A stretch of 48,186 nucleotides of DNA from positions 1-48,186 of the forward strand of contig JAUVAX010000016.1 in NCBI GenBank assembly GCA_030591685.1, in the 5' to 3' direction. Positions 5,917-23,095 of the stretch are shown here, one piece after another (the stretch's first letter is position 1; the number at the start of each line of letters is the position of its first letter). A program made the position numbers and the translations under genes. The stretch is from Pseudobdellovibrionaceae bacterium (lineage in GTDB: Bacteria; Bdellovibrionota; Bdellovibrionia; Bdellovibrionales; UBA1609). The notes under the pieces are model-generated. The model saw nothing but the letters and a program-made list of their open reading frames with translations, had not been told where the DNA came from and searched no databases.

Positions 5917-5955
5917 TGCTAACGCACTTTGATTATAATTTATAATAATATTGTT

Positions 5956-6053: not shown

Positions 6054-6054
6054 T

Positions 6055-6774: not shown

Positions 6775-6818
6775 GATTTATATTATAAAAGACCAGTCAT
6801 TAAGCCAAGTAAAAGTCT

Positions 6819-6849
6819 AAAAAAAAACCCTGGAACAAAAGTTCCAGGG
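6819..6849 (-). terminator. Intrinsic terminator ending the fla1 3' trailer
   Basis: CCCTGGAAC-TTTT-GTTCCAGGG followed by T9 on the minus strand. Confidence 0.9.
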
Positions 6850-6945
6850 CGGGCTTAAGAGTCGAAGTAAAGTAAAAAACTCTACAACGGGCTACTCATC
6901 TAAACTTAAAGTTAGAAAATTAAATAATAAGCTTAAATCAAAAGC
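6819..6945 (-). ncRNA. Candidate 3'-UTR-derived antisense RNA of fla1
   Basis: Lies between a stop-proximal hairpin and a terminator; 18-nt and 10-nt complementarity to the fla2 leader and 9-nt to the fla2 trailer. Confidence 0.5.
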
Positions 6946-6971
6946 CGGGAGCCAAAGCTGTTGGCCCCCAG
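6940..6971 (-). terminator. Stop-proximal hairpin (weak terminator or processing site) after fla1
   Basis: CTGGGGGCCAA-CAGCT-TTGGCTCCCGG then CTTTT. Confidence 0.6.
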
Positions 6972-6986
6972 TTCTTTAAAATTATA

Positions 6987-7811
6987 CTAAATCAGTCTCA
7001 GTGCGCTTTGTCCGTTTTGGTTAGCACTAGCTAAGACCCCAATGGCTGCGCTTTGTAAAATACTAGCAGATGCGAGCTCAGAGGTTTCGTGAGCAATATC
7101 AGCATCTTGTATTCTCGATTGTGCCGCAGAGAGGTTTTCGTTTTGTATGTCCAGATTACTTACAGTAACTTGTAATCTAGATTGAACAGCACCAAAGTCG
7201 GCTCGCATTTTACTGAGCTTCTCAATGGCGCTATCTACAGCTGAGAGTGTGTCCCTCGACCCGCTTTTATCAGTGATGTCGAGCCCATCAATACCGAGTT
7301 CTCCGGTTGTGGCGTCGGCATTCATCTCATATCTAATAATGTTTTCTTCTCCAGCAAATGGTCCAACATGGTACTCAAGTTCACCACCTGAGCCATTTAA
7401 AAGCTGTTTATTCCCAAACCTTGTGGATTGTGAAATACGCTCAGACTCTTTTATAAGTTGCTGTGCTTCTTGGTTTAAAAATTCTCGTTCTATATTACTG
7501 ACCGTATCACTGGCCCCCTGCACCCCAAGCTCTCTAAGCCTTATCAGGATGTTATTAATTTCATTCAACCCACCCTCACTAACTTGTATCAGTGACTGTG
7601 CGTTGTATGCATTGCTTCGAGCCATTCGGATCCCTTTAACTTGGCCCTTTATATTTTGTGATATCGCAAGGCCGGCGGCATCGTCGGCAGCGTTAACGAT
7701 TCGGCTCCCAGAAGCCAGAGCTGATTGTGCATGCTCTAATCGCCGTTGGTTTTTTGATAATTGCCTTTGTGCATTTATAGATGCTGTGTTTGTATTGATT
7801 CTTAAGCCCAT
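6987..7811 (-). CDS. fliC: Flagellin (fla1), 274 aa
   Basis: MGLRINTN...SGSRIVNAADDAAGLAI...SRIQDADIA; start moved to ATG 7811 after the AGGGGG RBS. Confidence 0.97.
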   Translation of the reverse strand: MGLRINTNTASINAQRQLSKNQRRLEHAQSALASGSRIVNAADDAAGLAISQNIKGQVKGIRMARSNAYNAQSLIQVSEGGLNEINNILIRLRELGVQGASDTVSNIEREFLNQEAQQLIKESERISQSTRFGNKQLLNGSGGELEYHVGPFAGEENIIRYEMNADATTGELGIDGLDITDKSGSRDTLSAVDSAIEKLSKMRADFGAVQSRLQVTVSNLDIQNENLSAAQSRIQDADIAHETSELASASILQSAAIGVLASANQNGQSALRLI

Positions 7812-8150
7812 TGGTAAGCCCCCTAGTAGTATTGTTTTTTGCTCATCCATGTATTTTTCTTGCCACTTAAGACAGAGAGCTTACAAAAAAAGAAGGTTTT
7901 AATTAAAAAAAACTATAGTGGCTATAAAAATAGCACACAGCTTTTTTTAGATTAAAAAACTTCTAGTTATGGGCTTCTTTGCTTAATAGCAAGGACCACG
8001 TCCTAGTCTTTATTAAGTTGTTACTTGGAGACGCTCTAAATTCAAGAGGGGTGACTGACCCTCTTAAAATTTAAAGACTTATTAGAAAGGCTTATTTCAG
8101 TGACTGCTAAAACAAACGTTCTCTTTTAAGGTGCTCCAACATGTTCTGAT
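7812..8150 (-). ncRNA. Long (~340 nt) fla1 5' leader with segments antisense to other flagellin leaders
   Basis: Between the sigma28 promoter and start codon; 15-nt exact complements of fla2 and fla4 leader segments; hairpin 8037..8073 with CAGUCAC loop. Confidence 0.55.
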
Positions 8151-8154
8151 AACC

Positions 8155-8181
8155 TCATCGACCAAGGTCCAGGAAACTTTA
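8155..8181 (-). promoter_or_regulatory. sigma28 promoter of fla1
   Basis: TAAA-N15-GTCGATGA. Confidence 0.85.
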
Positions 8182-8287
8182 GTACTTTGGTCTAGTTTTA
8201 TTTGCCGCAGCGCGTCTAGTCATTGAAATCACAGGAAATAGAAAATAAAAAAACTTATATAAAAAATGAAAAGACTAAAGTCACAAT

Positions 8288-8322
8288 AAATAAAGCCCTT
8301 AAAAGGTTTACTTTTAAGGGCT
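8288..8322 (-). terminator. Intrinsic terminator of fla2
   Basis: AGCCCTTAAAAG-TAAAC-CTTTTAAGGGCT followed by TTATTT. Confidence 0.8.
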
Positions 8323-8350
8323 GTTTTTGTTTTTTTGGGTGCCCGCCCTT

Positions 8351-9178
8351 TTATCCAATAAGCTTTCTGACTAATGTGGGGGCCTGATTGGCCTGTGCTA
8401 AGACGCTTGTAGAGAGCTCTTCAAGGATTCGAGCCCTTGTTAATTGAGCCATTTCACCAGCAACATCCACATCGGCAATAATTGAGCGAGCCTCTGAAAT
8501 GTTTTGGTGTTGAGAGGAAAGAGCGTCGATACTAAATTGAAACCGGCTTTGAGCTGAGCCAAACGTCGCTCGAGCCCTTAAGACCTGACCGAGGGCCCCA
8601 TCTAATTTTTCAATAGAATCTACGGCATCATCTTGGTCTGATATATTGAGGCCATCTATTTCAACCTCACTTGAGGTGGTGTTTGCATCTAGCTTAAATT
8701 TAATAATATTTTCGCTGCCGGCATTTGCCCCAACATGAAACGAAAACTCTTCATTATCGCCAACTAAAAGGTACTTTTGCCCGTACCTTGCCGACCGTGC
8801 AATACGGTCAAACTCCTGATTGAGGGATTGAAACTCCATGTCTAAGAACTCTCGTTCGTCTTTACCGACAGTATCAGAGGCGGCTTGAACGCCAATTTCT
8901 CTCATTCTTAAAAGGACATTGCTTTGCTCATTCAGGCTGCCTTCAGCTGTTTGTATAAAGGCCACGGCACTTTCGGCGTTAAGTTTGGCTTGTTTTAAGC
9001 CACTTATTTGAGACCTAAGGCCTTCGCTAATGGCAAAGCCGGCCACATCGCGACTGCCCTCGCCAACTCGCGAGCCAGAGGCCAGGGATTTTAGAGAGAT
9101 ATTAGTTTGTCTCTGCGATTTGTCCAAAAACCGTTGTGCCGTGAGAGACCCAACGTTTGTATTGATCCGAAAACTCAT
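8351..9178 (-). CDS. fliC: Divergent flagellin (fla2), 275 aa
   Basis: MSFRINTN...FIQTAEGSLNE...IADVDVA...VLAQANQAP; alternative GTG start at 9184. Confidence 0.95.
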   Translation of the reverse strand: MSFRINTNVGSLTAQRFLDKSQRQTNISLKSLASGSRVGEGSRDVAGFAISEGLRSQISGLKQAKLNAESAVAFIQTAEGSLNEQSNVLLRMREIGVQAASDTVGKDEREFLDMEFQSLNQEFDRIARSARYGQKYLLVGDNEEFSFHVGANAGSENIIKFKLDANTTSSEVEIDGLNISDQDDAVDSIEKLDGALGQVLRARATFGSAQSRFQFSIDALSSQHQNISEARSIIADVDVAGEMAQLTRARILEELSTSVLAQANQAPTLVRKLIG

Positions 9179-9269
9179 TTTCACACCCCTATCTTACTTT
9201 TCCTTTCTTAAGCCCTAAAAAAAGAAGAGTAGCCCAGTTGTAGAGATGTTGTTTTAGCAGTCAGGGGGC

Positions 9270-9296
9270 TCTTCGGTGCTGTGCGTCAGAACTTTA
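9270..9296 (-). promoter_or_regulatory. sigma28 promoter of fla2
   Basis: TAAA-N15-ACCGAAGA. Confidence 0.85.
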
Positions 9297-9555
9297 GATA
9301 AAAATAATGCAATACGTTAAGTGCTTGTTATAAAATACCTTTTTAGTAACATTTTTATAAACAGGCTCACCCTCAAGCTTCAGGTAAATGACTCCGTCCC
9401 TAGTTGGTGCTTTTGCAGCCCAGCTTCTGGCCTTCAGGCTTATAAGTCAAAATGAGATTCGCGGGGTCCAAATAAGAGGAGGGGTCGGCGATAAAAAAGT
9501 GGGGGGACAGAACATAAGGAGCTAGAAAGTAAAGGGACTAAAGAGAGAGTGTGCC

Positions 9556-9864
9556 TCAGGCGACCTCATCGTAGTTTTGAGCCTTACGAGTAAGAGTAAA
9601 CTCAAGCTCATCTAATTGAGCATATTTTTTAAGAGCCATTTTTAACTTAAAGTTGTGAGTAAATTTAGATTTATTTCGCTTCACAAACTCATCTAAGCGC
9701 TTTAAGGCCTCTTTAGATTCATCATAATGGGTCTTAACCGGCGGCTCGCCAGGTAAATCAGTATTAATAGGGGCCACTTTAAGGGGGGTGCCTTGAGGGG
9801 TGAGATGCTTGTCAGCCTCTTGGTCCTCCACAACAATAAATGGTTTCATAGCCTTAATTTGCAT
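9556..9864 (-). CDS. Hypothetical 102-aa protein, likely in the sigma28 regulon
   Basis: AGGGG RBS and upstream sigma28 promoter; no recognised domain. Confidence 0.7.
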   Translation of the reverse strand: MQIKAMKPFIVVEDQEADKHLTPQGTPLKVAPINTDLPGEPPVKTHYDESKEALKRLDEFVKRNKSKFTHNFKLKMALKKYAQLDELEFTLTRKAQNYDEVA

Positions 9865-9885
9865 TAAACTACCCCTTGGTCTAGC

Positions 9886-9912
9886 CTATCGGTAGTAAAC
9901 TCAAATACTTAA
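9886..9912 (-). promoter_or_regulatory. sigma28 promoter
   Basis: TTAA-N15-ACCGATAG. Confidence 0.75.
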
Positions 9913-10226
9913 TGCTTCGCGTTACTTATGAGGCAGGCTCCTTGAGTTAAGCCGGGCAAGCTGGCCTAACCCGTCCTAGAGCAGGCAGAAGTGTCCCTGG
10001 CCTTCATAGATTTAGCCCGCGAGGCTCAAATAACAGCCTATAAACAAAGCCTAGCCACAAATTGTCGGTAGTGTGTGTACACACGCAAGGGCGGTAACTC
10101 ATTAATTATACTTAACTTTTCACTTGTGGTAGGGGCAGTTGTTAGTTTTGCCTACAGGGCCCTTACTGAGTGGTCCCAAGTGATTAAAAATCTATTGTAA
10201 TAACAGATAGTTAGCCTGCTTCAATT

Positions 10227-10242
10227 TGGCACATTACGTGCC
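10227..10242 (+). promoter_or_regulatory. sigma54 -24/-12 promoter
   Basis: TGGCAC-ATTAC-GTGC with correct GG-N10-GC spacing. Confidence 0.65.
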
Positions 10243-10275
10243 TTATACATATATATAGGATAAGGAGCAGGCAAA

Positions 10276-11376
10276 ATGAACACTAAAAACACTTTCTACA
10301 TGGTTATCGTATTAATAGGTCTACTGTTTGTGTTTAATTATGGCGGTGGCAAGAACCCTTTTTTAAACGTAAAGGCAACTCAAAAAGTTTTTATGGATTT
10401 TCAAGATGAGGTTGATTTTAAAATCTCTAGGCCGTCCATAAAAATAACTCACCAAAATATGAGGCGCAAAATTCAGCAATTAAAAACGCGTAAGGTTTCG
10501 TTGAGAACAAAAAAACAACAGCTCTCAAAGAAAAAGGCGACTAAGGTTGTAAAAAAGAAAGATAAAAAGAAAAAGAAAAAAACTGAAGCTCAAAAAACTT
10601 TAGCTAACAAAAAAACTGTAAAAGATAAAAAATCACGAGCTAAATTGGAAGACTCTAACGTGCCTAATATCATTAGCTCAGCCCCTAAGGACGATGTAAA
10701 GGAAGCTTCAGAGGAGACAAATGAATGGATCGAAAGGTTTAAACAATTCCCAAATGTAAACACCTTAAAACAGTTTTTATCAGATCATCAGTTGGCTAAT
10801 ATTTCAGATCAGGTTTTTTATGCCGTTGTTGAAAGTTTATTAGAGGGGACAAATATAATTTTAAAAAAACTAGCCCTAACAGCCCTTGATGCTTCGCAAA
10901 CAGTGAGAAGCTTTCATTTACTAGTAGAGAAAGAATCAAGCCCAGAGTTTTTAGAATTAAAAGTAATGATCGAGCAAGCCCTTAATCGATACACCTTTGA
11001 GGGGCGCCTCTTTGTACTAAAGCAAGTTATTGGTAGCTCACAGTCTATTGCCTCTGTCGTTCGAGCAGGAGGTTTACTCTCTGAGCTTGTGAAGAAACTC
11101 ACTCAGGGTCAAAACGAAAAGGGAGAAATTCAAACCTTAGCACTCACAGAGAAGCGACGTAATCAAATGTTGGGCTTGCAGGAATTATTGAACCGAGCTA
11201 TAGGTGATTCGACTAATAATGATGTCAACGAGCAGTTGACAAGCACCTTAAGTGTTATAGAGGGTGTTTTAAAAGACACAACAAAGGTCGCCGAAAACTT
11301 AGATGACGACACTTTCGCCGAAGAGGGCGAGCCGGGTTTAGAAGAGGTTGGTTTGTCCTCTATAAGTACGTTTTAA
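10276..11376 (+). CDS. Hypothetical membrane-anchored protein, Lys-rich linker and helical (HEAT-like) C-terminus
   Basis: TAAGGAG RBS, N-terminal TM segment, KKKDKKKKKK tract. Confidence 0.75.
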   Translation: MNTKNTFYMVIVLIGLLFVFNYGGGKNPFLNVKATQKVFMDFQDEVDFKISRPSIKITHQNMRRKIQQLKTRKVSLRTKKQQLSKKKATKVVKKKDKKKKKKTEAQKTLANKKTVKDKKSRAKLEDSNVPNIISSAPKDDVKEASEETNEWIERFKQFPNVNTLKQFLSDHQLANISDQVFYAVVESLLEGTNIILKKLALTALDASQTVRSFHLLVEKESSPEFLELKVMIEQALNRYTFEGRLFVLKQVIGSSQSIASVVRAGGLLSELVKKLTQGQNEKGEIQTLALTEKRRNQMLGLQELLNRAIGDSTNNDVNEQLTSTLSVIEGVLKDTTKVAENLDDDTFAEEGEPGLEEVGLSSISTF

Positions 11377-11392
11377 TTAAAGGATAGTTTTT

Positions 11393-12511
11393 TTGAAGTT
11401 ATATTTTTATATACTAGCATTAATCTTCAGCTTTATAGGGAGTGCTGAGGCCTCCACGTGTAGACAGGTGTTTTCACCACATAAAATCCAATTAAAAACT
11501 ACTTATCAAAAAAGTGAATTTTTGGGTCAAGTGGCCGAAAACACAGGGAACAAGTCATTAAAAAAAATACGACTCAAAGTAGGTCAAGATCCGGAGCTTA
11601 AAGCTAGGTACAATAAACTTGTTGAAAAAATAGATTTAAACTCAGGGGCCTCAGCGGTTAAATTAGAAGTACTTTCGCAAAAGCTTATAGAGCTTATTAA
11701 GGTAAAAAATGAGGGGTATTTTAGAATCTTAAAAAAGGCGCTCTCGCCAAAGTCAGAGCCCCATGTTAAGGAGCTCGTTAGGCAGCGCCTACTTGTTCTG
11801 ACCCTTTCAAGGGATATTTCTTTAGAGTTAAAAAAATATGGCCTCTATCAAAAAAGCACTTGGCGCACGCGAGCACAAAGAAAACTCAAAAAATACATAC
11901 TACAAAGAAAACTTGTACAAGCCATTTTAATCAATGGCCTCAGTATTCATTTTTTAGGCTGGCCTGTTTATATACCTAATGTTGACTTTATTTCCCATAC
12001 CTACTTTTCACCCTCAGTATTGAAAATGGTCGAAAAGGAGGGCTTTGGGCCCACCTATAAGGATATTAAAAATCAATTTTCATTAAGGGTAGGGGCTCAA
12101 AAAGCCACCCATACAATTACAAAGGTTCTAACAGCAACGTTTTTGGCGACTTACTTGGCTTATTTTTCTTATGGGACTTATAAAGCAGGTAAACTTACTT
12201 ATGGTACCTATGAGATTCTACAAGACGTAGAGTACAGTCATACTTATTTTTTACTCAGCTCAGTACCTAAAGAAAATAAAATTTATGACAGTTGGGCTGA
12301 TCTATTTTATCAAATGAATGCTAGAGAGCCCGATATTAATAACAATCAATTTGACCGTTCTGATTGGAAAACTTACCTAATAGACATAAACACATCTTGG
12401 GCAAGCGCCATAGAGCAAGAGTATGGGCGCAGACCTAATATGAAAGAAAGCCTTGAAGACCGTAAAGCTTGGATAGAGTTTGTAAAAATTCCCTTTGATA
12501 GTGGTTTATAG
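11393..12511 (+). CDS. Hypothetical exported protein with internal hydrophobic segments
   Basis: Signal peptide ...AEA|STCRQVF; 372 aa. Confidence 0.75.
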   Translation: MKLYFYILALIFSFIGSAEASTCRQVFSPHKIQLKTTYQKSEFLGQVAENTGNKSLKKIRLKVGQDPELKARYNKLVEKIDLNSGASAVKLEVLSQKLIELIKVKNEGYFRILKKALSPKSEPHVKELVRQRLLVLTLSRDISLELKKYGLYQKSTWRTRAQRKLKKYILQRKLVQAILINGLSIHFLGWPVYIPNVDFISHTYFSPSVLKMVEKEGFGPTYKDIKNQFSLRVGAQKATHTITKVLTATFLATYLAYFSYGTYKAGKLTYGTYEILQDVEYSHTYFLLSSVPKENKIYDSWADLFYQMNAREPDINNNQFDRSDWKTYLIDINTSWASAIEQEYGRRPNMKESLEDRKAWIEFVKIPFDSGL

Positions 12512-12742
12512 GAGGGGGTTGGGTGTTGCTCGAGCGGGTCCTTTGCCTGCTACAGCTGATCTGCTAAATTGTCTGAGTTGTATAATAAAATCAGCTGAGC
12601 GTTAAGGCCAGTAGTGCACTAGGTGCATAGATCTATAGGTATGTAGAAATTTCACTATTTTGATTTACTAAGGCCAGCAGGCTTTAATTATAGTACTCTC
12701 GGTTAAAGTTTTACTTAGGTAAATACAAATAAAGGGGCTCTT

Positions 12743-14317: not shown

Positions 14318-14393
14318 GTATTACTAAGTCATTTATTAAGAGATATAGAGTTTTTTAAGTAAAAAAATAAATTGCGCGTAAAGGTAAAAAAAT

Positions 14394-16850
14394 ATGTTTA
14401 AATTTAAGGTTTTATTGGCGCCTGTTTTGTTAACAATGCTGGCCTCGTTTTCCCACGCGGCACCTAACATGTGTCATCTTCTTTTTAAGGCCTCTTACGA
14501 GGGCTTAACCAAGGCCGATCAATTAAGGTTAGATAATAGTAAAATTAAGATTGATCAAACCATAGATTTGAATTTTGATTTAGATTTTGTAAAAAACGCC
14601 GCAATACCTGAAAAAAAATATAATGAGTATGTCCATAAGTTTTATTACCATAAAAACTTTAACCCTTTAAGTTGGAGTTGGTACACGTTAAATCATTTGG
14701 GCCGTTGGACTTATATGACTTACCGAGGCGCCCCATCGGCTAGTTTTTATCAAAAAGCCCGACAAGACGCCCTATTTTTTGCAAGCCCTGAAATTCGACA
14801 AAAAATGAGTCGATTAAAAGAGGTTGTAGAGGGGTATGTAGAGCAAATTGTAAAAGTTAAAAATGAAATATCTGAACTAGAGTTAGAGGTTGATCATCTC
14901 AAGCAATATATTACCGAAAGCAAAAAAGAAAAAATCTTAGACCTACAGATGCAAATTGAGAGCCAGCGGTTAAAGCTTGAGTCCTATGAAGAAAAGCAAA
15001 AAAATAAAAATGATATTTTAGATAAAATTTCAAAAAATAGTGAGTTTAGAAAATCAAAAACAAGAATAAAAAGGCTGGTTAGGCAACTTAATACTTATGA
15101 CGCTCGAATTAATGAAACAATTAAGCTAGCCACCGCGACTCGATTAAGAGCCTACATGTACTGGAAGGCATTTCTTAGTTCGAGAATATTTTTTTATGAC
15201 AAGGTAAAGTATACACATCTCGTTATTGGCAAAAAAAATACAAGTAACGGAAAGTACTTTGAGGTCGTAGGGGCTCCTAGAGTTAGGGATTACCTTATTC
15301 GAGTCAAGGTCCCCGTGTATAATACTAAACTTAAGCAGTTCGAGTTTGAGGACGAATATTTTAAAACCAAATGGCACTTGTTTCATTCAGCCCGCGTAGA
15401 GCTAAGCAATGCCGTTAGGTATTCAGCCAAGGTCCCTGTTTTAAGTAGCTTGTTTTCGCAGCGTGAGGTTTTAAAACTAGAGAGGCAACAGGCTGAAACT
15501 CGGGGTGAACTTGAGGCTGTATATGTTGTTCTTGAGCGATTGAGATTAAAAAACAAGCTCAACCCAGAGACGACTGAGGAGCTAGATAAAATCGACACAG
15601 CTCTTAGAGAGCATGAGCGTACAGTCAGCCGCAGGGCAAAATTTTGGTTGAGCTCAAAGATATTTTGGGCCGAACACAAAAGCTTTTACAACCGCAGCTA
15701 TAATGCGACAGCACAATTTATTGACAAATACTTTAACCGCGACGGCGGTGCTGAAATTAGTCAAAATGAATTTACAGTACTCCTTAAGGACGCCGGTATT
15801 GCTGAAAAAACGAGAAGTTCTTTGCCAGTTACAGTGATGACCAGAAGCCTCATGGCCGTGCTCTTGAGTTCATCAGGGTATAAGTATCATCAAAACCTCT
15901 TTGAGTACGTACAGAAGTCTTATGACACTATAGATGCTACTGTCATGAATACCGCTTATAGGTATTATGGCGTTGATTTTAATATTAAAGCCATCACTCA
16001 TAAAGACTATAATTCAACAGGTAGCCGCACCGCTGAAGAGAAGTACGGAGCAGCTAGAAATAAACAGTTATACTTAGCCTTTGGGTCTAGGTATAAGAAA
16101 TTTTCAGAGGGAAAGCTAGAAGGCCTATCCTCTGAGGATATAACCACCTATGTAACCGCCGTAAATGAATTTAGAAAAGAGAGGGCGCTATACCTTTTAT
16201 CTAAAAAATTAAAGAGTATTGATGTGAGTAAAGATAAAAGTTTAATTTCTGTTCAATCTAAGTTAGTAGATAAGCTTTCAGAAGTTTCTTTTTTCGAAGC
16301 CGAAGCCATTGTAGAGGCTGCAAAAATAGTGGATAACAACGCATTTTCCCGTGTAGCCGCTGAACTATTGGGTGAAGTAACAAGAAAATACGATAACAAT
16401 AAAGAGATCTCAGACAGGGCGCCTGTCGATTTTGATAGCTATAAGGTCCAGAGATATATACTTAATATACTTCATGCCCTTAATTTAAGTGAAAAAGTAG
16501 ACTTTGCAACAGCACATAAGCTAATAGACGATTTAATGCTTGGAGAGCGAGGTTCAATGACCCTCAGGGCTTTAATCGAGGACAAGTACGAATTTGACAA
16601 TTTTAGGGCTAAAAAATTCTCCTTTCAAACAGAGTACAGCATTGAAAAGAACCTGCTCGAGGCTAGAAAGGCAGAGGTGAGTGTTTACTTTTTTAATAAA
16701 TTTATTAAAGACCATAACGGGGACGCAATAGATATTCTCAGTCGGGCGTTAGAGTTAGAGCAAGAGGCTTATAATCAGTACCTAAATGAAAATCCGGTAT
16801 TAAAGCGTGAAGTTATAAATGATAAGAGGTCTGTAGAGCTTGAGGATTAG
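14394..16850 (+). CDS. Large hypothetical secreted coiled-coil protein
   Basis: Signal peptide ...SHA|APNMCHLLF; 818 aa; heptad-rich region. Confidence 0.78.
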   Translation: MFKFKVLLAPVLLTMLASFSHAAPNMCHLLFKASYEGLTKADQLRLDNSKIKIDQTIDLNFDLDFVKNAAIPEKKYNEYVHKFYYHKNFNPLSWSWYTLNHLGRWTYMTYRGAPSASFYQKARQDALFFASPEIRQKMSRLKEVVEGYVEQIVKVKNEISELELEVDHLKQYITESKKEKILDLQMQIESQRLKLESYEEKQKNKNDILDKISKNSEFRKSKTRIKRLVRQLNTYDARINETIKLATATRLRAYMYWKAFLSSRIFFYDKVKYTHLVIGKKNTSNGKYFEVVGAPRVRDYLIRVKVPVYNTKLKQFEFEDEYFKTKWHLFHSARVELSNAVRYSAKVPVLSSLFSQREVLKLERQQAETRGELEAVYVVLERLRLKNKLNPETTEELDKIDTALREHERTVSRRAKFWLSSKIFWAEHKSFYNRSYNATAQFIDKYFNRDGGAEISQNEFTVLLKDAGIAEKTRSSLPVTVMTRSLMAVLLSSSGYKYHQNLFEYVQKSYDTIDATVMNTAYRYYGVDFNIKAITHKDYNSTGSRTAEEKYGAARNKQLYLAFGSRYKKFSEGKLEGLSSEDITTYVTAVNEFRKERALYLLSKKLKSIDVSKDKSLISVQSKLVDKLSEVSFFEAEAIVEAAKIVDNNAFSRVAAELLGEVTRKYDNNKEISDRAPVDFDSYKVQRYILNILHALNLSEKVDFATAHKLIDDLMLGERGSMTLRALIEDKYEFDNFRAKKFSFQTEYSIEKNLLEARKAEVSVYFFNKFIKDHNGDAIDILSRALELEQEAYNQYLNENPVLKREVINDKRSVELED

Positions 16851-16885
16851 TTTACTATAGTCTTAATATGTTAGTCCTAAAATCT

Positions 16886-16916
16886 AAAGCCCAGTCGAGC
16901 TCGACTGGGCTTTTTT
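16886..16916 (+). terminator. Intrinsic terminator
   Basis: Palindrome AAAGCCCAGTCGAGCTCGACTGGGCTTT followed by T tract. Confidence 0.85.
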
Positions 16917-17022
16917 CTATTTGCCCACAAGTCGATAAAAACTTAGTCGAGTATTCTTTAGTCTGTAGGGGTATAAAGGTCTGTATAATTTTAATTCTAT
17001 AGTCTTGGTTTTTATTTCTTTA

Positions 17023-17093
17023 GTCTAGAATGAGCAACACCTAAATCTAGTTTCACTCGACTGGGCTTAAGCAATGACTAGCCTCGCCGAAGG
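17023..17093 (+). promoter_or_regulatory. sigma28 promoter of fla3 with upstream palindromic box
   Basis: ATCTAG-N5-CTCGAC-N5-TTAA-N15-GCCGAAGG; extra GTCTAG at 17023. Confidence 0.8.
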
Positions 17094-17285
17094 GTAAGTT
17101 GTAAGCGGCACTGGCCTAGACTTAAAAAATGAAGAGAGATTTATAGTTTTAAAAGTAGACATAAACCTCGCTAAAAGTTTTAAGTACAAGGTCTGGTGTA
17201 AAAAATAAACCGTGTCGATAGACACCACAATCTGTAAGTAGCGGTAGGTCGTGAAAGTAAATTGTGAAAAATAAGGAGAACACAC

Positions 17286-18119
17286 ATGGCACTAGTTATA
17301 TCAACAAACATACCCTCAATAAATGCTCAAAAATCAATGAGTCAAACACAAAGAACACTACAAAAAACCATGGCCCAACTTTCATCGGGGTCAAGAATAA
17401 CAAAGGCCGCAGATGATGCCGCAGGCTTATCAATAAGTGAAAACTTAAAGTCTAACATAAGAGGCTACACACAGGCTCGTAGAAACGCCAACGACGGGAT
17501 CTCAATGATTCAAGTGGCTGAGGGTGGCCTTGCTGAGGTTTCAAATATATTAACGAGGCTCAGGGAGCTAGGCGTTCAGGCTGCTTCTGATACGATCGGA
17601 GATACAGAACGTGGATTTGTGAACAAAGAAGTTCAGCAATTAAAAAACGAAGTTCAACGTATTGCTAGTTCGACAAGGTTTAATGGCGCTCAGTTATTAG
17701 ATGGATCTGGGGGCGAGTTTTCCTTTCAGGTAGACATAGGTAATGATGATTTTAAAGATAGAATAACATTTGATACCTCAGAGCAGTCGGTGAACCTTTC
17801 TGATTTAAGTATTGATGGTTTTGATTTTTCATCCAACGATGGAGCCAGAGAGGCCCTAGAGCAACTCGATGCAAGCCAATCACAAGTGAACGGGCATAGA
17901 GCGAATTTAGGAGCCCTACAAAACAGACTCATATCTACAACAGAAAACCTAAGCACAGCAATTGAGAACTTTTCATCTGCAAACTCACGAATCAGAGACA
18001 CAGATGTTGCAGAATCAAGTGCAGCCCTTGCCTCAGCACAAATATTAGCTCAGGCTTCTGTGGGTGTTTTGGCTCAAGCCAATCAAATGCCTCAATCGGC
18101 ACTAAGGCTAATAGCTTAA
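17286..18119 (+). CDS. fliC: Flagellin (fla3)
   Basis: LSSGSRITKAADDAAGLSISE...SRIRDTDVA. Confidence 0.97.
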   Translation: MALVISTNIPSINAQKSMSQTQRTLQKTMAQLSSGSRITKAADDAAGLSISENLKSNIRGYTQARRNANDGISMIQVAEGGLAEVSNILTRLRELGVQAASDTIGDTERGFVNKEVQQLKNEVQRIASSTRFNGAQLLDGSGGEFSFQVDIGNDDFKDRITFDTSEQSVNLSDLSIDGFDFSSNDGAREALEQLDASQSQVNGHRANLGALQNRLISTTENLSTAIENFSSANSRIRDTDVAESSAALASAQILAQASVGVLAQANQMPQSALRLIA

Positions 18120-18179
18120 TAGTAATTATTTATAGATTTTATGTTTGGGGGGTGGTTCTCCGTCCCCGGAACTGACCTA

Positions 18180-18209
18180 CCCGGGGGGCTTGTCTCCCGG
18201 GGTTCTTTT
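18180..18209 (+). terminator. Terminator of fla3
   Basis: CCCGGGGGG-CTTG-TCTCCCGGG then GTTCTTTT. Confidence 0.7.
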
Positions 18210-18602
18210 AGTAAATAATATTATTACTGAAAGAAAGGTAAATGAATGGCTCACATGAGCCTCTAGTTTATAAAACCTCCTAAAGGTAAAAGCTAACTTA
18301 AAATTCACCCCTTTAAAGGTAAAAGTTATAGCTTAAGTCCACCTTTTTACTTCAAAATTAATTTATCACAATGGGTTTAAATATTAAGATAATAAAAATC
18401 TAATTTACCTTAATGCCCTCATTTAATATTGCTTATTTATTTTTGTTATATAGATAGTAGAAGTTAATTGTGTACAGGTAATTAATAACTCAGTGAGGTT
18501 GGGAACTTAATATATATAGACTCCACCAAGTAACAAAACATTAATTAACTTAAAAATATCATTGAAAACATTTTAGTAATTTTGATTTTTCCTAGAAGGG
18601 CC

Positions 18603-18680
18603 ATACGTTAGTCTAGTTAGTCAATACGTTGGTCTAGTTTGCCTAGACTCGACTAAAGTTCACCCAGACTCGACCGAAGT
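18603..18680 (+). promoter_or_regulatory. sigma28 promoter of fla4 with upstream boxes
   Basis: ATACGTTRGTCTAGTT x2 (21-bp period); GTCTAG-N5-CTAGAC-N5-TAAA-N15-ACCGAAGT. Confidence 0.85.
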
Positions 18681-18687
18681 AGTGGTA

Positions 18688-18895
18688 TACAAAGCAGCAG
18701 ACCTTGGACGGTCAGAACTTAGTTAAGCTTTTGAGTGACTGCTTAAGCTTAATTAAAAAAACTAAGTTCATTTCCTCAAGTTTCTTCTGCTCCAACATGT
18801 TCAACCAAGCCTATGATGGGCTGTTCTTGGCGGGCGGTTAGGGTCCGCCAAGAGCAGGGAAGATGGAATCTTTCTTAAAAAACGAGGAGAGTCTA
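18688..18895 (+). ncRNA. Conserved structured 5' leader of fla4
   Basis: Same hairpin order and conserved loops as the fla5 leader, with compensatory stem changes. Confidence 0.7.
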
Positions 18896-19729
18896 ATGTC
18901 ACTCAACATCACAACAAACATAGCGTCTATAAACGCTCAAAAAACAATGGCCACGTCGCAACGAAGTTTAGAAAAGAGTTTTGCTCAACTTTCGTCGGGT
19001 TCAAGAATAACAAAGGCTTCAGATGATGCCGCTGGGTTATCTATAAGCGAAAACTTAAAATCAACAATCAGAGGCTACTATCAGGCCCAACGAAATGCTA
19101 ACGATGGTATTTCAATGATTCAAGTAGCAGAAGGGGGCTTGGCTGAAACCTCTAATATATTAACTCGTTTAAGAGAATTAGGAGTACAAGCCGCGTCAGA
19201 TACAGTTGGTGACACAGAGAGAGGCTTTATTAATCAAGAAGTTCAACAGTTAAAAAGTGAAGTTCAGCGTATTGCCGAATCTACCAGGTATAACGGAACA
19301 AACCTACTTGATGGTAGCGGTGAGGAGTTTTCATTTCAAATAGATATAGGCAATGATGAGTTCAGAGATCGAATTTCATTTGATGCTTCAGCTCAAGAGG
19401 TCACCCTGGGTGCACTTGATATATCTAACTTTGATTATGCTGAAAAAGACGGAGCCAGAGATGCGCTTTCTGTTTTAGAAGATGCTCAAACAAGCGTCAA
19501 CGGGCACAGGGCAACTCTTGGAGCACTTCAGAATCGCCTTATTTCGACTTCAGAGAATTTAAACAATGCTATTGAAAACTTTTCGGCAGCTAACTCTCGA
19601 ATTAGAGATACTGACGTAGCTCAATCTAGCGCCGACTTAGCAAAGGGCCAGGTTTTAAATGCAGCCTCTATTAGTGTCCTGGCTCAGGCCAATCAAATGC
19701 CGCAATCAGCACTTCGCTTAATAGGTTAA
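18896..19729 (+). CDS. fliC: Flagellin (fla4), 277 aa
   Basis: Start moved to ATG 18896 after GAGGAG; MSLNITTNIAS matches fla5. Confidence 0.97.
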   Translation: MSLNITTNIASINAQKTMATSQRSLEKSFAQLSSGSRITKASDDAAGLSISENLKSTIRGYYQAQRNANDGISMIQVAEGGLAETSNILTRLRELGVQAASDTVGDTERGFINQEVQQLKSEVQRIAESTRYNGTNLLDGSGEEFSFQIDIGNDEFRDRISFDASAQEVTLGALDISNFDYAEKDGARDALSVLEDAQTSVNGHRATLGALQNRLISTSENLNNAIENFSAANSRIRDTDVAQSSADLAKGQVLNAASISVLAQANQMPQSALRLIG

Positions 19730-19762
19730 TACTTTAAAAAAAATGATATTAAAGACGTCTAG

Positions 19763-19796
19763 ACCAAGGCCCAGAAACTGGCCTTGGTTTTTTTTT
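19763..19796 (+). terminator. Terminator of fla4
   Basis: ACCAAGGCCCAG-AAA-CTGGCCTTGGT followed by T tract. Confidence 0.85.
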
Positions 19797-19919
19797 GAAC
19801 TTAAATATAGTTAGACATTATTTTTTAAAAACATAACTTCAGTTTATACCTCTGCTTTTAAAATTTACCTTCTATAAATAGTAAAAATATAAATATACCC
19901 TTAAAGCCTATGGACGAAT

Positions 19920-19990
19920 GTCTAGATCAAGTAACACCTTCGTCTAGTTATGCTCGACTCGACTTAAGTTCGCCCGGACTAGACCGAAGG
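19920..19990 (+). promoter_or_regulatory. sigma28 promoter of fla5 with upstream boxes
   Basis: GTCTAG at 19920 and 19942; GTCTAG-N5-CTCGAC-N5-TTAA-N15-ACCGAAGG. Confidence 0.85.
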
Positions 19991-19997
19991 GTTGTTA

Positions 19998-20204
19998 TAA
20001 CAAGCAGCAAGACTTTCGGCGGTCAGACTTTAGTAAGCCTTTATGTGACTGTATCGGTTTAAATAGAGCTAAAGTCAGACAAAGAAAAATTTGCAGCTCT
20101 AACATGTTCAACCCAATCCATGATGGATATCTGACGTGCGGGAGGTTAGGCCCGTTCATTAGGATTAAGAGCAAAGAGGCTCTTAAAAACCAAAGGAGAG
20201 TACT
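19998..20204 (+). ncRNA. Conserved structured 5' leader of fla5
   Basis: Homologous to the fla4 leader. Confidence 0.7.
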
Positions 20205-21038
20205 ATGTCACTCAATATAACAACAAACATAGCGTCTATAAACGCTCAAAAAACAATGGCCACGTCGCAAAGAAATTTAGAAAAGAGCTTTGCTCAACTT
20301 TCGTCGGGTTCAAGAATAACAAAGGCTTCAGATGATGCTGCGGGGCTATCTATAAGCGAAAACTTAAAATCAACAATCAGAGGCTACTATCAAGCACAGC
20401 GTAACGCGAGTGATGGTATTTCAATGATTCAAGTAGCTGAAGGAGGTTTGGCTGAAACCTCTAATATATTAACCCGTTTAAGGGAGCTAGGAGTTCAGGC
20501 CGCATCAGATACCGTTGGCAATACTGAACGAGGATTTATAAATAAAGAAGTTCAGCAGCTAAAAAGTGAGATTCAACGTATTTCTCAAGCAACAAGATAT
20601 AATGGTACAAACCTTTTAGATGGTAGCGGTGAAGAGTTTTCATTTCAGGTAGATATCGGTAATGATGATTTTAGAGATCGAATTTCATTCGATGCATCAG
20701 CACAAGAAAGCACATTAAGTGCTCTTGATGTAGGAAGCTTTGACTATTCAGATAAAGATGGCGCCAGGGAGGCACTTTCAGTTTTAGAGGACGCACAAAC
20801 TACTGTTAACGGTCACCGAGCAACGCTTGGTGCACTTCAAAATCGATTAATTTCAACCTCTGAGAACTTAAATAACGCCATTGAAAATTTCTCGGCGGCC
20901 AATTCTCGAATTAGAGATACAGATGTAGCTCAATCTAGTGCAGATTTAGCAAAGGGACAGGTTTTAAATGCAGCCGCAATTAGTGTTCTTTCGCAGGCCA
21001 ATCAAATGCCACAATCAGCACTTAGATTAATTGGATAA
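20205..21038 (+). CDS. fliC: Flagellin (fla5)
   Basis: Close paralogue of fla4; AAGGAG RBS. Confidence 0.97.
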   Translation: MSLNITTNIASINAQKTMATSQRNLEKSFAQLSSGSRITKASDDAAGLSISENLKSTIRGYYQAQRNASDGISMIQVAEGGLAETSNILTRLRELGVQAASDTVGNTERGFINKEVQQLKSEIQRISQATRYNGTNLLDGSGEEFSFQVDIGNDDFRDRISFDASAQESTLSALDVGSFDYSDKDGAREALSVLEDAQTTVNGHRATLGALQNRLISTSENLNNAIENFSAANSRIRDTDVAQSSADLAKGQVLNAAAISVLSQANQMPQSALRLIG

Positions 21039-21104
21039 TAAATTTTAAGAGTTAAAATTTGGCAGGGGAGAACTCTCCATTCCGGCCAGATCTAACCTAA
21101 CCTA

Positions 21105-21133
21105 CCTAAGGGCTCCGCAGCCCTTAGGTTTTT
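21105..21133 (+). terminator. Terminator of fla5
   Basis: CCTAAGGGCT-CCGC-AGCCCTTAGG-TTTTT. Confidence 0.9.
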
Positions 21134-21149
21134 CTAGTTATATGTCCTA

Positions 21150-21177
21150 TAAAGAAGACCGCTTATAATACCGATCC
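21150..21177 (+). promoter_or_regulatory. Possible sigma28 promoter of flaG-like gene
   Basis: TAAA-N16-ACCGATCC ending 10 nt before the ATG. Confidence 0.5.
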
Positions 21178-21187
21178 TCACCTTAAG

Positions 21188-21559
21188 ATGAATATAAAAT
21201 CACTTTCGAACATTATAACGCCCACAGATACGTTAACTCGAGTGGATAAAAAAGCTGAGGTTAAGGCCGAGCAAAGTGGTGAACGAGATGCAGATGGACG
21301 ACGACAACAGGACTCAGGTCCTGAAAAGCATTCTATAAATGATGAGGAGCTTCAAATAATTTTAGAAGCCTTAAAATCAATACCCGGAGTGATGGAACAT
21401 GATTTGATAATCCGTCCTCAAGAGATAAATAATTCATACTTTTTCTTTATTGAGGATAATAAGGGCAAAGTAATTCGTCGACTTAACACTAAAGAGGCGT
21501 GGGCCGTTCACCTTAGTAATGATCAGCCTAAAGGGCAGCTTTTAGACAAATCAATGTAG
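21188..21559 (+). CDS. flaG: FlaG-like flagellar protein
   Basis: Between flagellin and fliD; IEDNKGKVIRRL...GQLLDK pattern. Confidence 0.65.
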   Translation: MNIKSLSNIITPTDTLTRVDKKAEVKAEQSGERDADGRRQQDSGPEKHSINDEELQIILEALKSIPGVMEHDLIIRPQEINNSYFFFIEDNKGKVIRRLNTKEAWAVHLSNDQPKGQLLDKSM

Positions 21560-21677
21560 GGCTCTATCGGTAGTTCTTACCTATGTATTTGGTCTATGAC
21601 ATTCAATTGACTCACATAAATAATTAAATATTTGCAATAATTAAGTAAGGGTAATGACCTTTTTTAGGAGGATGATA

Positions 21678-23042: not shown

Positions 23043-23095
23043 ACATTTATGAATATGAGCCGATATATAAACATAAGTAAAGGAAGTAATGATTA

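What the first reader, a model, noticed from the sequence alone, without database searches (positions are those of the whole stretch)
6819..21133. Candidate RNA-RNA base-pairing network linking the untranslated regions of all five flagellin transcripts
Seen: several non-coding segments are reverse complements of each other as RNA. fla1 leader with fla4, fla5 and fla2 leaders (15, 14, 15 nt); fla1 trailer with fla2 leader (18 and 10 nt); fla3 and fla5 trailers with fla3/4/5 leader loops (7-9 nt). Each match is an inverted repeat in DNA when both genes share a strand and a direct repeat when they are on opposite strands, so the only consistent rule is transcript complementarity. An exact 15-mer has chance about 4^-15 per position pair under uniform composition. 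Established: paralogous flagellins are normally tuned by sigma28/FlgM, CsrA-FliW or separate sRNAs. Inference: these mRNAs regulate or co-assemble with one another through their UTRs to set flagellin stoichiometry or order in the filament. I know of no described system like this, but could not search.
Basis: partly seen in the sequence, partly recalled or inferred. Interest (0 to 1): 0.92.

Follow-up and report, generated by a model that had tools for sequence, protein, structure and literature searches.

The report
Flagellin mRNAs that pair through UTRs
The untranslated ends of several flagellin messenger RNAs in this Bdellovibrio-family bacterium are complementary to one another, and the match is kept by paired mutations across many related genera, which points to RNA-RNA contacts that probably tune which flagellins are made.

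Summary
The long complementarities are real and not chance. They are fla1 leader x fla4 leader (15 nt), x fla5 (14 nt with one G:U), x fla2 5' end (15 nt), and fla1 trailer x fla2 leader (18 nt with a bulge, plus 10 nt). The 7-9 nt matches and the link to fla3 sit at chance level in the window.

Relatives decide the matter. In loci of Bdellovibrionaceae/Pseudobdellovibrionaceae, each partner pair changes together. Cognate partners beat non-cognate ones (0/20000, 1/20000 and 0/20000 permutations). Mismatches in the best helix are G:U 16 against A.C 1. A pair of hairpin loops covaries without exception (G/C 22, A/T 8, A/C 0). The rule holds whether the genes share a strand or not.

fla1 (the fliC1/Bd0604 orthologue) is the hub. 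Its 5' end, two hairpins and a trailer module each have a partner.

Published B. bacteriovorus RNA-seq reports two unexplained small RNAs, APsRNA3 and APsRNA4, at the places that correspond to the fla1 leader and trailer.

The effect on expression is inferred, not shown.

I file this as a new variant of a known kind.

The parts
8156..8181 (-). sigma28-like promoter of fla1
   Evidence: Pattern scan. The same layout is conserved upstream of fla1 orthologues. In B. bacteriovorus HD100 a FliA promoter and a mapped start lie at the corresponding place (APsRNA3, PMC3627812 Table 2).
8132..8146 (-). Element D: predicted first ~15 nt of fla1 mRNA. It is complementary to the fla4 and fla5 leaders, and in cis to 8025-8030.
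   Evidence: In relatives, positions 1-11 give WC 264, GU 16, A.C 1, other 5 in 26 distinct pairs. Cognate 32.2 against non-cognate 26.4, 0/20000.
8090..8117 (-). HP1 hairpin of the fla1 leader (loop 8101-8106). Its 5' arm plus loop (8101-8115) is complementary to the fla2 mRNA 5' end.
   Evidence: MFE fold. Column counts over 25 loci: 85.0% paired, 11 of 22 pairs with changes on both sides, 0/2000 permutations. It co-occurs with an adjacent fla2.
8044..8065 (-). HP2 hairpin of the fla1 leader, loop 8051-8058. The loop is complementary to the hairpin loop in the fla4 and fla5 leaders.
   Evidence: Stem covaries. The variable loop base covaries with the partner loop: G/C 22, A/T 8, G/T 2, A/C 0.
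8025..8030 (-). 3' strand of helix P1. It pairs in cis with 8134-8140 and closes a three-way junction around HP1 and HP2.
   Evidence: MFE folds of 3 of 5 orthologues. The count of structure pairs: helix 1 is 91.6% paired, 2 pairs with changes on both sides.
6987..7811 (-). fla1 CDS (orthologue of B. bacteriovorus Bd0604/fliC1 by position and 59-85% identity in relatives)
6945..6971 (-). First terminator-like hairpin directly after the fla1 stop codon
6819..6900 (-). fla1 trailer module. It holds site B' (6880-6897), site C' (6846-6854), the 10-mer 6851-6860, and the terminator 6827-6850 with its U tract.
   Evidence: The module is conserved downstream of fla1 in relatives. Cognate against non-cognate with the fla2 leader: 30.9 against 27.5, 1/20000. 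It corresponds in place to APsRNA4 of HD100.
9271..9296 (-). sigma28-like promoter of fla2
9249..9263 (-). Site A: predicted 5' end of fla2 mRNA, complementary to fla1 HP1
9206..9243 (-). Site B region of the fla2 leader (9225-9243 and 9206-9215), complementary to the fla1 trailer
8341..8349 (-). Site C: G/C-rich 9-mer just after the fla2 stop codon, complementary to fla1 trailer 6846-6854 (weak support)
   Evidence: 10 of 29 loci, my tally of the listing. Permutation 237/20000, but the same-sense control gives 540/20000.
8351..9184 (-). fla2 CDS
18654..18679 (+). sigma28-like promoter of fla4
   Evidence: The HD100 Bd0606 promoter and TSS have the same layout.
18735..18741 (+). Loop heptamer in the first hairpin of the fla4 leader, complementary to the fla1 HP2 and HP1 loops
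18788..18802 (+). Element D' of the fla4 leader, complementary to the fla1 mRNA 5' end. It is unpaired in the MFE fold.
   Evidence: RNAcofold ddG -13.6 kcal/mol, 0/40 shuffles as low.
20045..20051 (+). Loop heptamer in the fla5 leader
20096..20109 (+). Element D' of the fla5 leader (14 nt, one G:U)
   Evidence: ddG -13.0, 2/40.
18896..19729 (+). fla4 CDS
20205..21038 (+). fla5 CDS
17286..18119 (+). fla3 CDS. Its leader (about 17100-17285) lacks D' and the loop heptamer, so it is not convincingly part of the network.

Best explanation
The untranslated regions of paralogous, sigma28-driven flagellin transcripts carry sites that evolve under selection to stay complementary to each other as RNA. 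fla1 is the hub.

(1) The first ~11-21 nt of the fla1 transcript pair with a single-stranded stretch about 105-125 nt upstream of the start codon of 'type-A' flagellin leaders (fla4 and fla5 here; the fliC2 neighbour in Bdellovibrio). The loop of fla1 hairpin HP2 matches the loop of a hairpin about 50 nt further upstream in the same leaders. Together this looks like a kissing loop plus an end duplex.

(2) The 5' arm and loop of fla1 hairpin HP1 match the 5' end of fla2 mRNA. The fla2 end repeats the sequence of HP1's own 3' arm, so pairing would work by strand displacement started at the loop.

(3) A hairpin-plus-terminator module behind fla1 matches the fla2 leader.

The pairing RNAs may be the full mRNAs or stable UTR fragments. 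The cultured relative accumulates small RNAs at the places that correspond to the fla1 leader and trailer.

The most likely consequence is post-transcriptional cross-regulation among flagellin paralogues, through stability and/or translation, which sets their ratio or timing as FlaX does in Vibrio.

Shown: the complementarity, its covariation, its RNA-type mismatch bias and its structural context. Shown only in a relative and from a paper: the transcripts exist. Inferred: pairing in vivo, its sign, and its effect on the filament.
For: Window. The long matches exceed shuffles and are unique in the genome.

Relatives. The fla2->fla1 tandem and the long fla1 leader are conserved. The 5' element was found in 49 of 81 loci after a distance filter.

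De novo best complementary hit. By my own tally of the listing, the best hit falls on site A in 21 of 29 loci, on site B in 15 of 29 and on site C in 10 of 29.

Cognate against non-cognate partners:
- A: 36.9 against 28.9, 0/20000.
- B: 30.9 against 27.5, 1/20000.
- D: 32.2 against 26.4, 0/20000.
- Same-sense and distal-leader controls are not significant.

Column counts for A: 85.0% paired, 11 of 22 pairs with changes on both sides, permuted partners 77.9 +/- 1.3% (0/2000), slid registers 28-44%.

Element D, positions 1-11: WC 264, GU 16, A.C 1, other 5.

Loops: G/C 22, A/T 8, G/T 2, A/C 0 over 32 gene pairs. By eye the A/T state falls in at least four separate groups of loci.

Orientation. 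The rule holds for same-strand, opposite-strand and divergent gene arrangements.

HP1 presence tracks an adjacent fla2: 33 of 35 loci with an adjacent flagellin gene have HP1, and 25 of 35 without one lack it.

Structure. The fla1 5' domain is 86.6% paired against 77.4% shuffled, 0/500 on all five measures. The type-A hairpin is 64.3% against 44.2%, with 0/500 on three of the five measures. D' is unpaired in the MFE folds.

Energetics with intramolecular competition. fla1 5' domain x fla4 leader -13.6 kcal/mol (0/40 shuffles); x fla5 -13.0 (2/40); negative control fla3 -3.2 (35/40).

Transcripts in HD100. Bd0604 lies at 562130-562954(+). APsRNA3 lies at 561854-561981(+) with a FliA promoter. 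APsRNA4 lies at 562984-563081(+). The Bd0606 TSS is 164 nt upstream of its start (PMC3627812 Table 2 and supplementary files 2 and 3).
Against: There are no RNA data for this organism. One DNA holder and no RNA holder were listed, so transcript ends in the window are predicted from promoter and terminator motifs and by analogy with HD100.

I never saw the HD100 sequence. The identification of APsRNA3 and APsRNA4 with the fla1 elements rests on coordinates and on related Bdellovibrio strains.

For pairing A in this genome, the net cofold gain is no better than shuffles (-4.8 kcal/mol, 18/40). For trailer x fla2 leader it is modest (-9.0, 6/40).

The mismatch bias in A is weak: GU 20, A.C 11, other 21 in the 17 core pairs.

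Site C and the leader-loop/trailer motif are weak.

RNAalifold on MAFFT alignments did not recover HP1 or the type-A hairpin, and it proposed a different cis partner for the 5' element.

The loci are related to one another, so permutation counts overstate independence.

In Bdellovibrio proper I found no partner for the conserved trailer loop.

Nothing here shows the direction or size of any regulatory effect.
Confidence: 0.72

Rival explanations
1. The fla2-fla1 complementarities (A, B, C) are long-range intramolecular pairs inside a read-through fla2-fla1 transcript. They would be 5'UTR-intergenic and 5'UTR-3'UTR closure of one RNA, not contacts between separate mRNAs.
For: fla2 lies directly upstream of fla1 on the same strand in 35 of 70 loci examined. 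The sites are arranged so that one bicistronic RNA could form all three.
Against: Each gene has its own sigma28-like promoter, and fla2 has a strong terminator. In G010 fla2 and fla1 are divergent, yet A (20 nt) and B (12 nt) persist (read by eye). Ten loci have HP1 without an adjacent fla2; in several of them fla2 lies kilobases away. Pairings D and the loops link genes that are 10 kb apart and on opposite strands in the window.
Confidence: 0.08
2. The motifs are binding sites of a protein (a DNA-binding regulator or an RNA-binding protein). They occur in either orientation, and the sites of one genome change together because they track the same protein.
For: The elements are highly conserved cores close to promoters. 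CsrA and FliW are encoded in the genome. A further conserved motif array lies upstream of the promoters.
Against: Mismatches in helix D are G:U 16 against A.C 1, an asymmetry that only RNA pairing predicts. Helices extend by lineage-specific flanking bases, up to 21 nt in L037. The motifs sit in hairpin loops whose stems covary. The two partners are always reverse complements in transcript sense and never the same sense (same-sense controls).
Confidence: 0.07
3. The repeats are DNA-level features: relics of duplicated and inverted leader segments, or inverted repeats that flank an invertible (phase-variable) segment carrying fla2 and the fla1 promoter.
For: In the window, A, B and C are inverted repeats around fla2, and D is a direct repeat. 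The fla1 trailer aligns over 52 nt with the reverse complement of the fla2 leader. The + strand of the fla1 leader carries the two fla4 elements in the same order.
Against: The repeat type (direct or inverted) switches with gene orientation among genomes, while transcript complementarity is constant. Compensatory changes occur at many positions over many genera. There is a G:U bias. No recombinase family was found among the 14 neighbouring ORFs scanned against Pfam. I saw no inverted variant of the segment among 35 loci with the tandem.
Confidence: 0.03

Closest known systems
Vibrio cholerae FlaX (PMC11879080; abstract and passages read)
   Same: It is an RNA from the 3'UTR of one flagellin gene (flaA). 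It base-pairs at several sites in the 5'UTR of a paralogous flagellin mRNA (flaB) and changes flagellin ratios and motility. The authors propose that flagellin mRNAs generally use 3'UTR-derived sRNAs against other flagellins. The fla1 trailer module x fla2 leader pairing has this layout.
   Different: FlaX is ProQ-associated and RNase E-processed, and its gene is sigma54/FlrA-dependent. Here ProQ and Hfq were not found and all the genes have sigma28-like promoters. The dominant contacts here are 5'UTR to 5'UTR: a transcript 5' end, a kissing loop and strand invasion of a hairpin, centred on one hub leader. I found no sequence relation (Rfam gave nothing).
sigma28-dependent UTR-derived sRNAs of E. 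coli (MotR, FliX, etc.; PMC10578931, search listing and abstract start only)
   Same: They are small RNAs derived from UTRs of flagellar genes, transcribed from sigma28 promoters, and they act on flagellar synthesis.
   Different: That is all I take from the listing and abstract start; the paper's targets and chaperone dependence were not read. Here the partners are the leaders of paralogous flagellin mRNAs, and Hfq was not found in this genome.
APsRNA3 and APsRNA4 of B. bacteriovorus HD100 (PMC3627812, Table 2 and supplements read)
   Same: By coordinates they lie 276 nt upstream of Bd0604 and 30 nt downstream of it, where the fla1 5' domain and trailer module lie in relatives. APsRNA3 has a FliA promoter. 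Both are attack-phase specific.
   Different: They were reported as intergenic sRNAs of unknown function, with no targets, no structure model and no link to the flagellin genes. No later paper in the held library mentions them.
Antisense kissing-loop control (plasmid CopA/CopT, RNA I/RNA II; recalled, no call)
   Same: Recognition starts between complementary hairpin loops of about 6-7 nt and can go on to a longer duplex.
   Different: Those pairs are cis-encoded and fully complementary. Here the partners are encoded in trans by paralogous genes and share only short covarying sites.
Listeria mRNA-mRNA interaction that couples a virulence factor and its chaperone (PMC8722363, search listing only)
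   Same: Two protein-coding mRNAs pair directly to couple their expression.
   Different: It is a single pair of unrelated genes, not a multi-node set among paralogues. I did not read the details.

Membership tests
FlaX-type flagellin 3'UTR-derived sRNA | Encoded in the 3'UTR of a flagellin gene and ending at a terminator | tested here: met
   The module 6819-6900(-) lies behind fla1 with the terminator 6827-6850. It is conserved behind fla1 orthologues.
FlaX-type flagellin 3'UTR-derived sRNA | Complementary to the 5'UTR of a paralogous flagellin mRNA at more than one site | tested here: met
   18 nt (with a bulge) plus 10 nt with the fla2 leader, z 7.2. Covaries in relatives, 1/20000.
FlaX-type flagellin 3'UTR-derived sRNA | Accumulates as a separate small RNA released from the mRNA | not testable with these tools
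   No RNA run for this organism. In HD100 a 98-nt RNA (APsRNA4) is reported 30 nt behind Bd0604.
FlaX-type flagellin 3'UTR-derived sRNA | Associated with and stabilised by ProQ | tested here: not met
   The ProQ family PF04352 was not found in the genome (completeness estimate 100%).
Hfq-dependent sigma28 UTR-derived sRNAs (E. coli type) | sigma28 promoter | tested here: met
   A motif lies upstream of each of the five flagellin genes. This is a motif match only.
Hfq-dependent sigma28 UTR-derived sRNAs (E. coli type) | Hfq present as chaperone (a feature of this class as I recall it; not read in PMC10578931) | tested here: not met
   The Hfq family PF17209 was not found in the genome.
Any curated Rfam family | Match at the family's gathering score | tested here: not met
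   There were 5 matches at E <= 1 in 5500-23500. None reached its gathering score and none was relevant.
Kissing-loop antisense pair | Complementary loops presented on hairpins, with covariation between the loops | tested here: met
   Loop bases G/C 22, A/T 8, G/T 2, A/C 0. Stems covary.
Kissing-loop antisense pair | Cis-encoded, fully complementary partners | tested here: not met
   The partners are separate genes up to 10 kb apart, with only short complementary sites.
Hin-type invertible flagellar switch | Recombinase gene in or beside a segment flanked by inverted repeats, with both orientations found | tested here: not met
   No recombinase family among the 14 ORFs scanned. No inverted variant among the tandem loci. 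Complementarity follows transcripts, not DNA orientation.
CsrA-FliW control of flagellin translation | csrA and fliW genes present; GGA motifs at the flagellin leader and SD | tested here: inconclusive
   csrA and fliW lie side by side on contig C35. GGA-rich leaders are seen by eye for the flagellins on C22 and C85. This is not the feature under study and does not explain the complementarities.

The most novel reading that the evidence does not exclude
The fla1 (fliC1) leader is a chaperone-independent docking hub. Its three-way-junction 5' domain would hold two other flagellin mRNAs at once: fla2 by invasion of HP1, and a type-A mRNA by a 5'-end duplex plus the HP2 kissing loop. The fla1 trailer would clamp the fla2 leader. 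Flagellin mRNAs would then travel and be translated as a physical multi-mRNA complex, which would fix the order or local ratio in which different flagellins reach the export gate. That is assembly-line control by mRNA-mRNA tethering rather than simple repression.
Probability: 0.15. Interest if true: 0.95.

Novelty: new variant of a known kind. Interest (0 to 1): 0.8.

Why it matters
How bacteria with many flagellin paralogues set the composition and order of the filament is largely unexplained. Bdellovibrio, with six flagellins and a sheathed flagellum, is a classic case.

This finding gives concrete, nucleotide-resolved candidate contacts. Evolution has already run the compensatory-mutation experiment on them over many genera.

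It also assigns a probable role to two published but orphan small RNAs (APsRNA3 and APsRNA4) of a cultivable, genetically tractable model.

It would extend the recent FlaX idea, cross-talk between flagellin mRNAs through their UTRs, to another phylum. The mechanics differ: leader-to-leader pairing, a transcript 5' end used as seed, and kissing loops, with no Hfq or ProQ found.

Tried and rejected
- Exact-match length as a statistic. Rejected because dinucleotide shuffles of these A/T-rich UTRs reach 17 nt through homopolymer runs. I replaced it with a weighted local score.
- RNA.duplexfold all-against-all. I replaced it with the local score and RNAcofold.
- Sequencing runs. No RNA holder was listed, and two metatranscriptome runs of the same study hold next to none of the sampled words. 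I did not lay any reads.
- Earlier findings of this scan. Nothing for this place or these words.
- DNA search of the fla4 leader in 31 genomes. Only the region upstream of the promoter matched, in 5 relatives, so the leaders had to be compared by anchored analysis.
- One long alignment of the fla2-fla1 region (A1, 3886 columns). It exceeded the column limit of the count of structure pairs, so I made the same kind of count in a script.
- RNAalifold on MAFFT alignments. It missed HP1 and the type-A hairpin. I counted hand-given structures instead.
- Partner of the fla1 trailer loop in B. bacteriovorus strains. A 10-mer pattern search was at noise level, and the one hit shared between genomes lay inside a coding region. 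None of five other flagellin leaders of strain Bd5 matched convincingly.
- Leader-loop x own-trailer motif. Only weak support: 23.8 against 22.9, 790/20000.
- Site C. The signal is not clearly above the composition control.

Full report
**What is in the window**

The region holds five flagellin genes, each with Pfam Flagellin_N and Flagellin_C.
- fla1: 6987-7850(-)
- fla2: 8351-9184(-)
- fla3: 17286-18119(+)
- fla4: 18863-19729(+)
- fla5: 20205-21038(+)

fliD follows at 21654-23042. The domain offsets suggest that the true starts of fla1 and fla4 are 7811 and 18896.

A loose sigma28-type pattern finds a site in front of each of the five genes. Terminator-like hairpins follow each gene, and fla1 has two: 6945-6971 and 6827-6850.

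The genome is a 98-contig, 2.66-Mb assembly with eight flagellin genes and a weaker ninth Flagellin_N match. Record titles of the closest loci place it in the Bdellovibrionaceae/Pseudobdellovibrionaceae.

**Check of the observation**

The long complementarities exist as described.
- fla1 leader 8132-8146 with fla4 leader 18788-18802: 15 nt.
- fla1 leader with fla5 leader 20096-20109: 14 nt with one G:U.
- fla1 leader 8101-8115 with fla2 leader 9249-9263: 15 nt.
- fla1 trailer 6880-6897 with fla2 leader 9225-9243: 18 nt with a bulge.
- fla1 trailer 6851-6860 with fla2 leader 9206-9215: 10 nt.

Exact-match length is a poor statistic here. Shuffles of these A/T-rich segments reach 17 nt through homopolymer runs. 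Matches of 9 nt or more are raised equally in both orientations.

With a weighted local score and 300 dinucleotide shuffles per pair, the results were as follows.
- fla1 trailer x fla2 leader: z 7.2, 0/300.
- fla1 leader x fla4: 1/300.
- fla1 leader x fla2: 4/300.
- fla1 leader x fla5: 12/300.
- fla1 trailer x fla4 leader: 6/300.
- fla2 leader x fla4 leader: 4/300.
- The remaining pairs of the 45 are at chance.
- Same-sense similarity appears only among fla3, fla4 and fla5, which is paralogy.

The 15-mers are unique in the genome. Rfam gave nothing at any gathering score. So the long matches are real, while the 7-9-nt matches and the fla3 link are not above chance in this window.

**What the relatives show**

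fla1 has clear orthologues: 59-85% identity against 45-55% for paralogues. They were found in 16 of 26 family genomes sampled, G000 included, and in 80 public loci.

In many genera fla2 sits directly upstream of fla1.

The fla1 leader is conserved in architecture.
- A sigma28-like promoter.
- A 5' element at the predicted start.
- Hairpin HP1.
- Hairpin HP2, with a near-invariant loop heptamer.
- A short element that pairs in cis with the 5' element.

The 5' element was found in 49 of 81 loci after a distance filter.

MFE folds give a three-way junction in 3 of 5 orthologues folded. A count of the helix P1 plus HP2 model on 18 sequences gave 86.6% paired cells against 77.4% in shuffles. Seven pairs had changes on both sides. 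All five measures scored 0/500, and slid registers gave 41-62%.

**Partner sites change together**

*(A) fla2 mRNA 5' end with the 5' arm and loop of fla1 HP1.*
- By my tally of the listing, the best de novo complementary hit falls here in 21 of 29 loci.
- Cognate partners score 36.9 against 28.9 for non-cognate, 0/20000 permutations.
- On alignment columns of 25 loci, 85.0% of 453 cells pair (WC 360, GU 25, mismatch 68).
- Eleven of 22 pairs show changes on both sides.
- Permuted partners give 77.9 +/- 1.3% (0/2000). Slid registers give 28-44%.

*(B) fla2 leader with the loop of a hairpin in the fla1 trailer.*
- It is the best hit in 15 of 29 loci (my tally).
- Cognate 30.9 against 27.5, 1/20000.
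- Whole blocks are replaced on both sides in this window, G037, G031 and G014 (read by eye).

*(D) The first nucleotides of fla1 mRNA with a stretch 105-125 nt upstream of the start codon of 'type-A' flagellin leaders.*
- Cognate 32.2 against 26.4, 0/20000, n = 25 loci.
- In 26 distinct pairs from 22 loci, positions 1-11 give WC 264, GU 16, A.C 1, other 5.
- Changes on both sides occur at five positions.

*(E) The fla1 HP2 loop with the loop of a hairpin about 50 nt upstream of D' in the same leaders.*
- The one variable base covaries: G/C 22, A/T 8, G/T 2, A/C 0 over 32 gene pairs.
- By eye the A/T state falls in at least four separate groups of loci.

Controls. The same-sense and distal-leader controls for A, B and D are not significant. 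These rules hold where the genes share a strand (most loci), lie on opposite strands (window, L033, L034) or are divergent (G010).

HP1 tracks fla2. Of 35 loci with an adjacent upstream flagellin gene, 33 have HP1. Of 35 without one, 25 lack it. Several of the other ten have fla2 kilobases away.

**Weaker parts**

- Site C (fla2 trailer with fla1 trailer) gives 237/20000, but its same-sense control gives 540/20000.
- The leader-loop/own-trailer motif of the fla3/4/5-type genes gives 23.8 against 22.9, 790/20000.
- For A, the core mismatches are GU 20, A.C 11, other 21. In this genome the net cofold gain is no better than shuffles: -4.8 kcal/mol, 18/40.
- D does better: -13.6 with fla4 (0/40) and -13.0 with fla5 (2/40).
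- The trailer with the fla2 leader is modest: -9.0 (6/40).
- The fla3 control gives -3.2 (35/40).
- RNAalifold on MAFFT alignments missed HP1 and the type-A hairpin, and it offered another cis partner for the 5' element.
- A hand-given stem for the type-A hairpin gave 64.3% against 44.2%, with 0/500 on three of the five measures.

**Are these RNAs made?**

There is no RNA run for this organism. The cultured relative B. bacteriovorus HD100 has published RNA-seq and TSS maps (PMC3627812; passages, section 16 and supplementary files 2 and 3 read).
- Bd0604 (flagellin) lies at 562130-562954(+).
- APsRNA3 lies at 561854-561981(+), is 128 nt long and has a FliA promoter. It starts 276 nt upstream of Bd0604.
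- APsRNA4 lies at 562984-563081(+), is 98 nt long and starts 30 nt after the Bd0604 stop codon.
- The Bd0606 TSS lies 164 nt upstream of its start, with a FliA site.

In other Bdellovibrio strains, the fla1 orthologue's 5' element lies 280-296 nt upstream of the start, and the trailer module lies directly behind the gene. Pairings D and E are kept there with further compensatory changes.

I did not see the HP1 element in these strains, and no adjacent fla2 is present.

I did not see the HD100 sequence itself, so the equation of APsRNA3 and APsRNA4 with these elements rests on coordinates. No later paper in the held library mentions these sRNAs.

**How it most likely works**

*Shown.* Selection keeps these UTR sites complementary as RNA. 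The sites sit in a 5' end, in hairpin loops or in an unpaired linker, all places suited to starting a duplex.

*Inferred.*
- fla1 RNA, either full length or as stable leader and trailer fragments, pairs in trans with fla2 and type-A flagellin mRNAs.
- The fla2 5' end repeats the sequence of HP1's own 3' arm. Pairing would therefore start at the loop and displace that arm.
- The type-A contact would combine a loop-loop kiss with an 11-21-bp end duplex well upstream of the ribosome-binding site. That argues for an effect on stability or processing rather than direct occlusion of the ribosome-binding site.
- The trailer contact lies in the fla2 leader, and in this window it extends to within 8 nt of the start region. 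That is compatible with translational control, as for FlaX.

Hfq and ProQ families were not found; CsrA and FliW were. The sign of regulation is unknown.

**Comparison with what is known**

The nearest system is V. cholerae FlaX (PMC11879080; abstract and passages read). It is an sRNA processed from the flaA 3'UTR. It pairs at three sites in the flaB 5'UTR, blocks initiation and shifts filament composition. Its authors propose this as a general concept for flagellin mRNAs.

The fla1 trailer/fla2 leader pair works like that, but it fails the ProQ criterion and shows no sequence relation.

I did not find the following described in the searches:
- leader-to-leader contacts;
- use of a transcript 5' end as the seed;
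- the covarying kissing loops;
- the hub role of one leader.

The sigma28-dependent UTR-derived sRNAs of E. coli and the C. jejuni flagellar sRNAs were seen only as search listings. The Listeria mRNA-mRNA pair was also seen only as a listing.

**Verdict**

- The feature is a new variant of a known kind.
- It is conserved from this cold-seep MAG to cultured Bdellovibrio and can be tested there directly.

Noticed in passing
window 18611-18652, 19933-19960, 17028-17060 (+) and 8187-8225: An array of two to four copies of a short motif with a palindromic CTAG core lies just upstream of the -35 of the flagellin promoters. For fla1 it is in inverted orientation. This is the only part of the fla4 upstream region that a DNA search finds in other genera (5 relatives). 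It is a candidate site for a transcription factor.
   Followed up: partly
window 10276-16850 (+) and 9556-9864 (-): Four large ORFs (366, 372, 524 and 818 aa) and a 102-aa ORF lie between the two flagellin groups. None has a Pfam family at E <= 0.001.
   Followed up: no
G000 contigs C22:1-330 and C85:1087-1500; C35:69278-70050: The leaders of two flagellin genes elsewhere in the genome carry tandem GGA-rich motifs at and just before the Shine-Dalgarno sequence (by eye). csrA and fliW lie side by side on C35. So a CsrA-FliW circuit probably acts on other flagellins in parallel.
   Followed up: partly
loci L089, L093, L102, L103, L106 (fliC2-type genes); window 18150-18175 and 21062-21085: The trailers of fla3/fla5-type genes hold a hairpin whose loop contains a CUCC-like anti-Shine-Dalgarno string. 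In Bdellovibrio strains the best leader/own-trailer match is this loop against the gene's own Shine-Dalgarno region. This may be 3'UTR to ribosome-binding-site pairing.
   Followed up: no
window 8107-8140 (-): RNAalifold pairs the fla1 5' element with the 5' arm of HP1 instead of the distal cis element. The pairs are kept but show no changes on both sides. The 5' element may therefore switch between two cis partners and the trans partner.
   Followed up: partly
window 8294-8322: A 12-bp hairpin with T runs on both sides scores as a terminator on both strands. It separates fla2 from the fla1 promoter.
   Followed up: no
window 7812-8020 (-): The distal 200 nt of the 336-nt fla1 leader is A/T-rich and not conserved in sequence among genera. 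Its length, however, is kept at roughly 190-340 nt in most loci. Its role is unknown.
   Followed up: no
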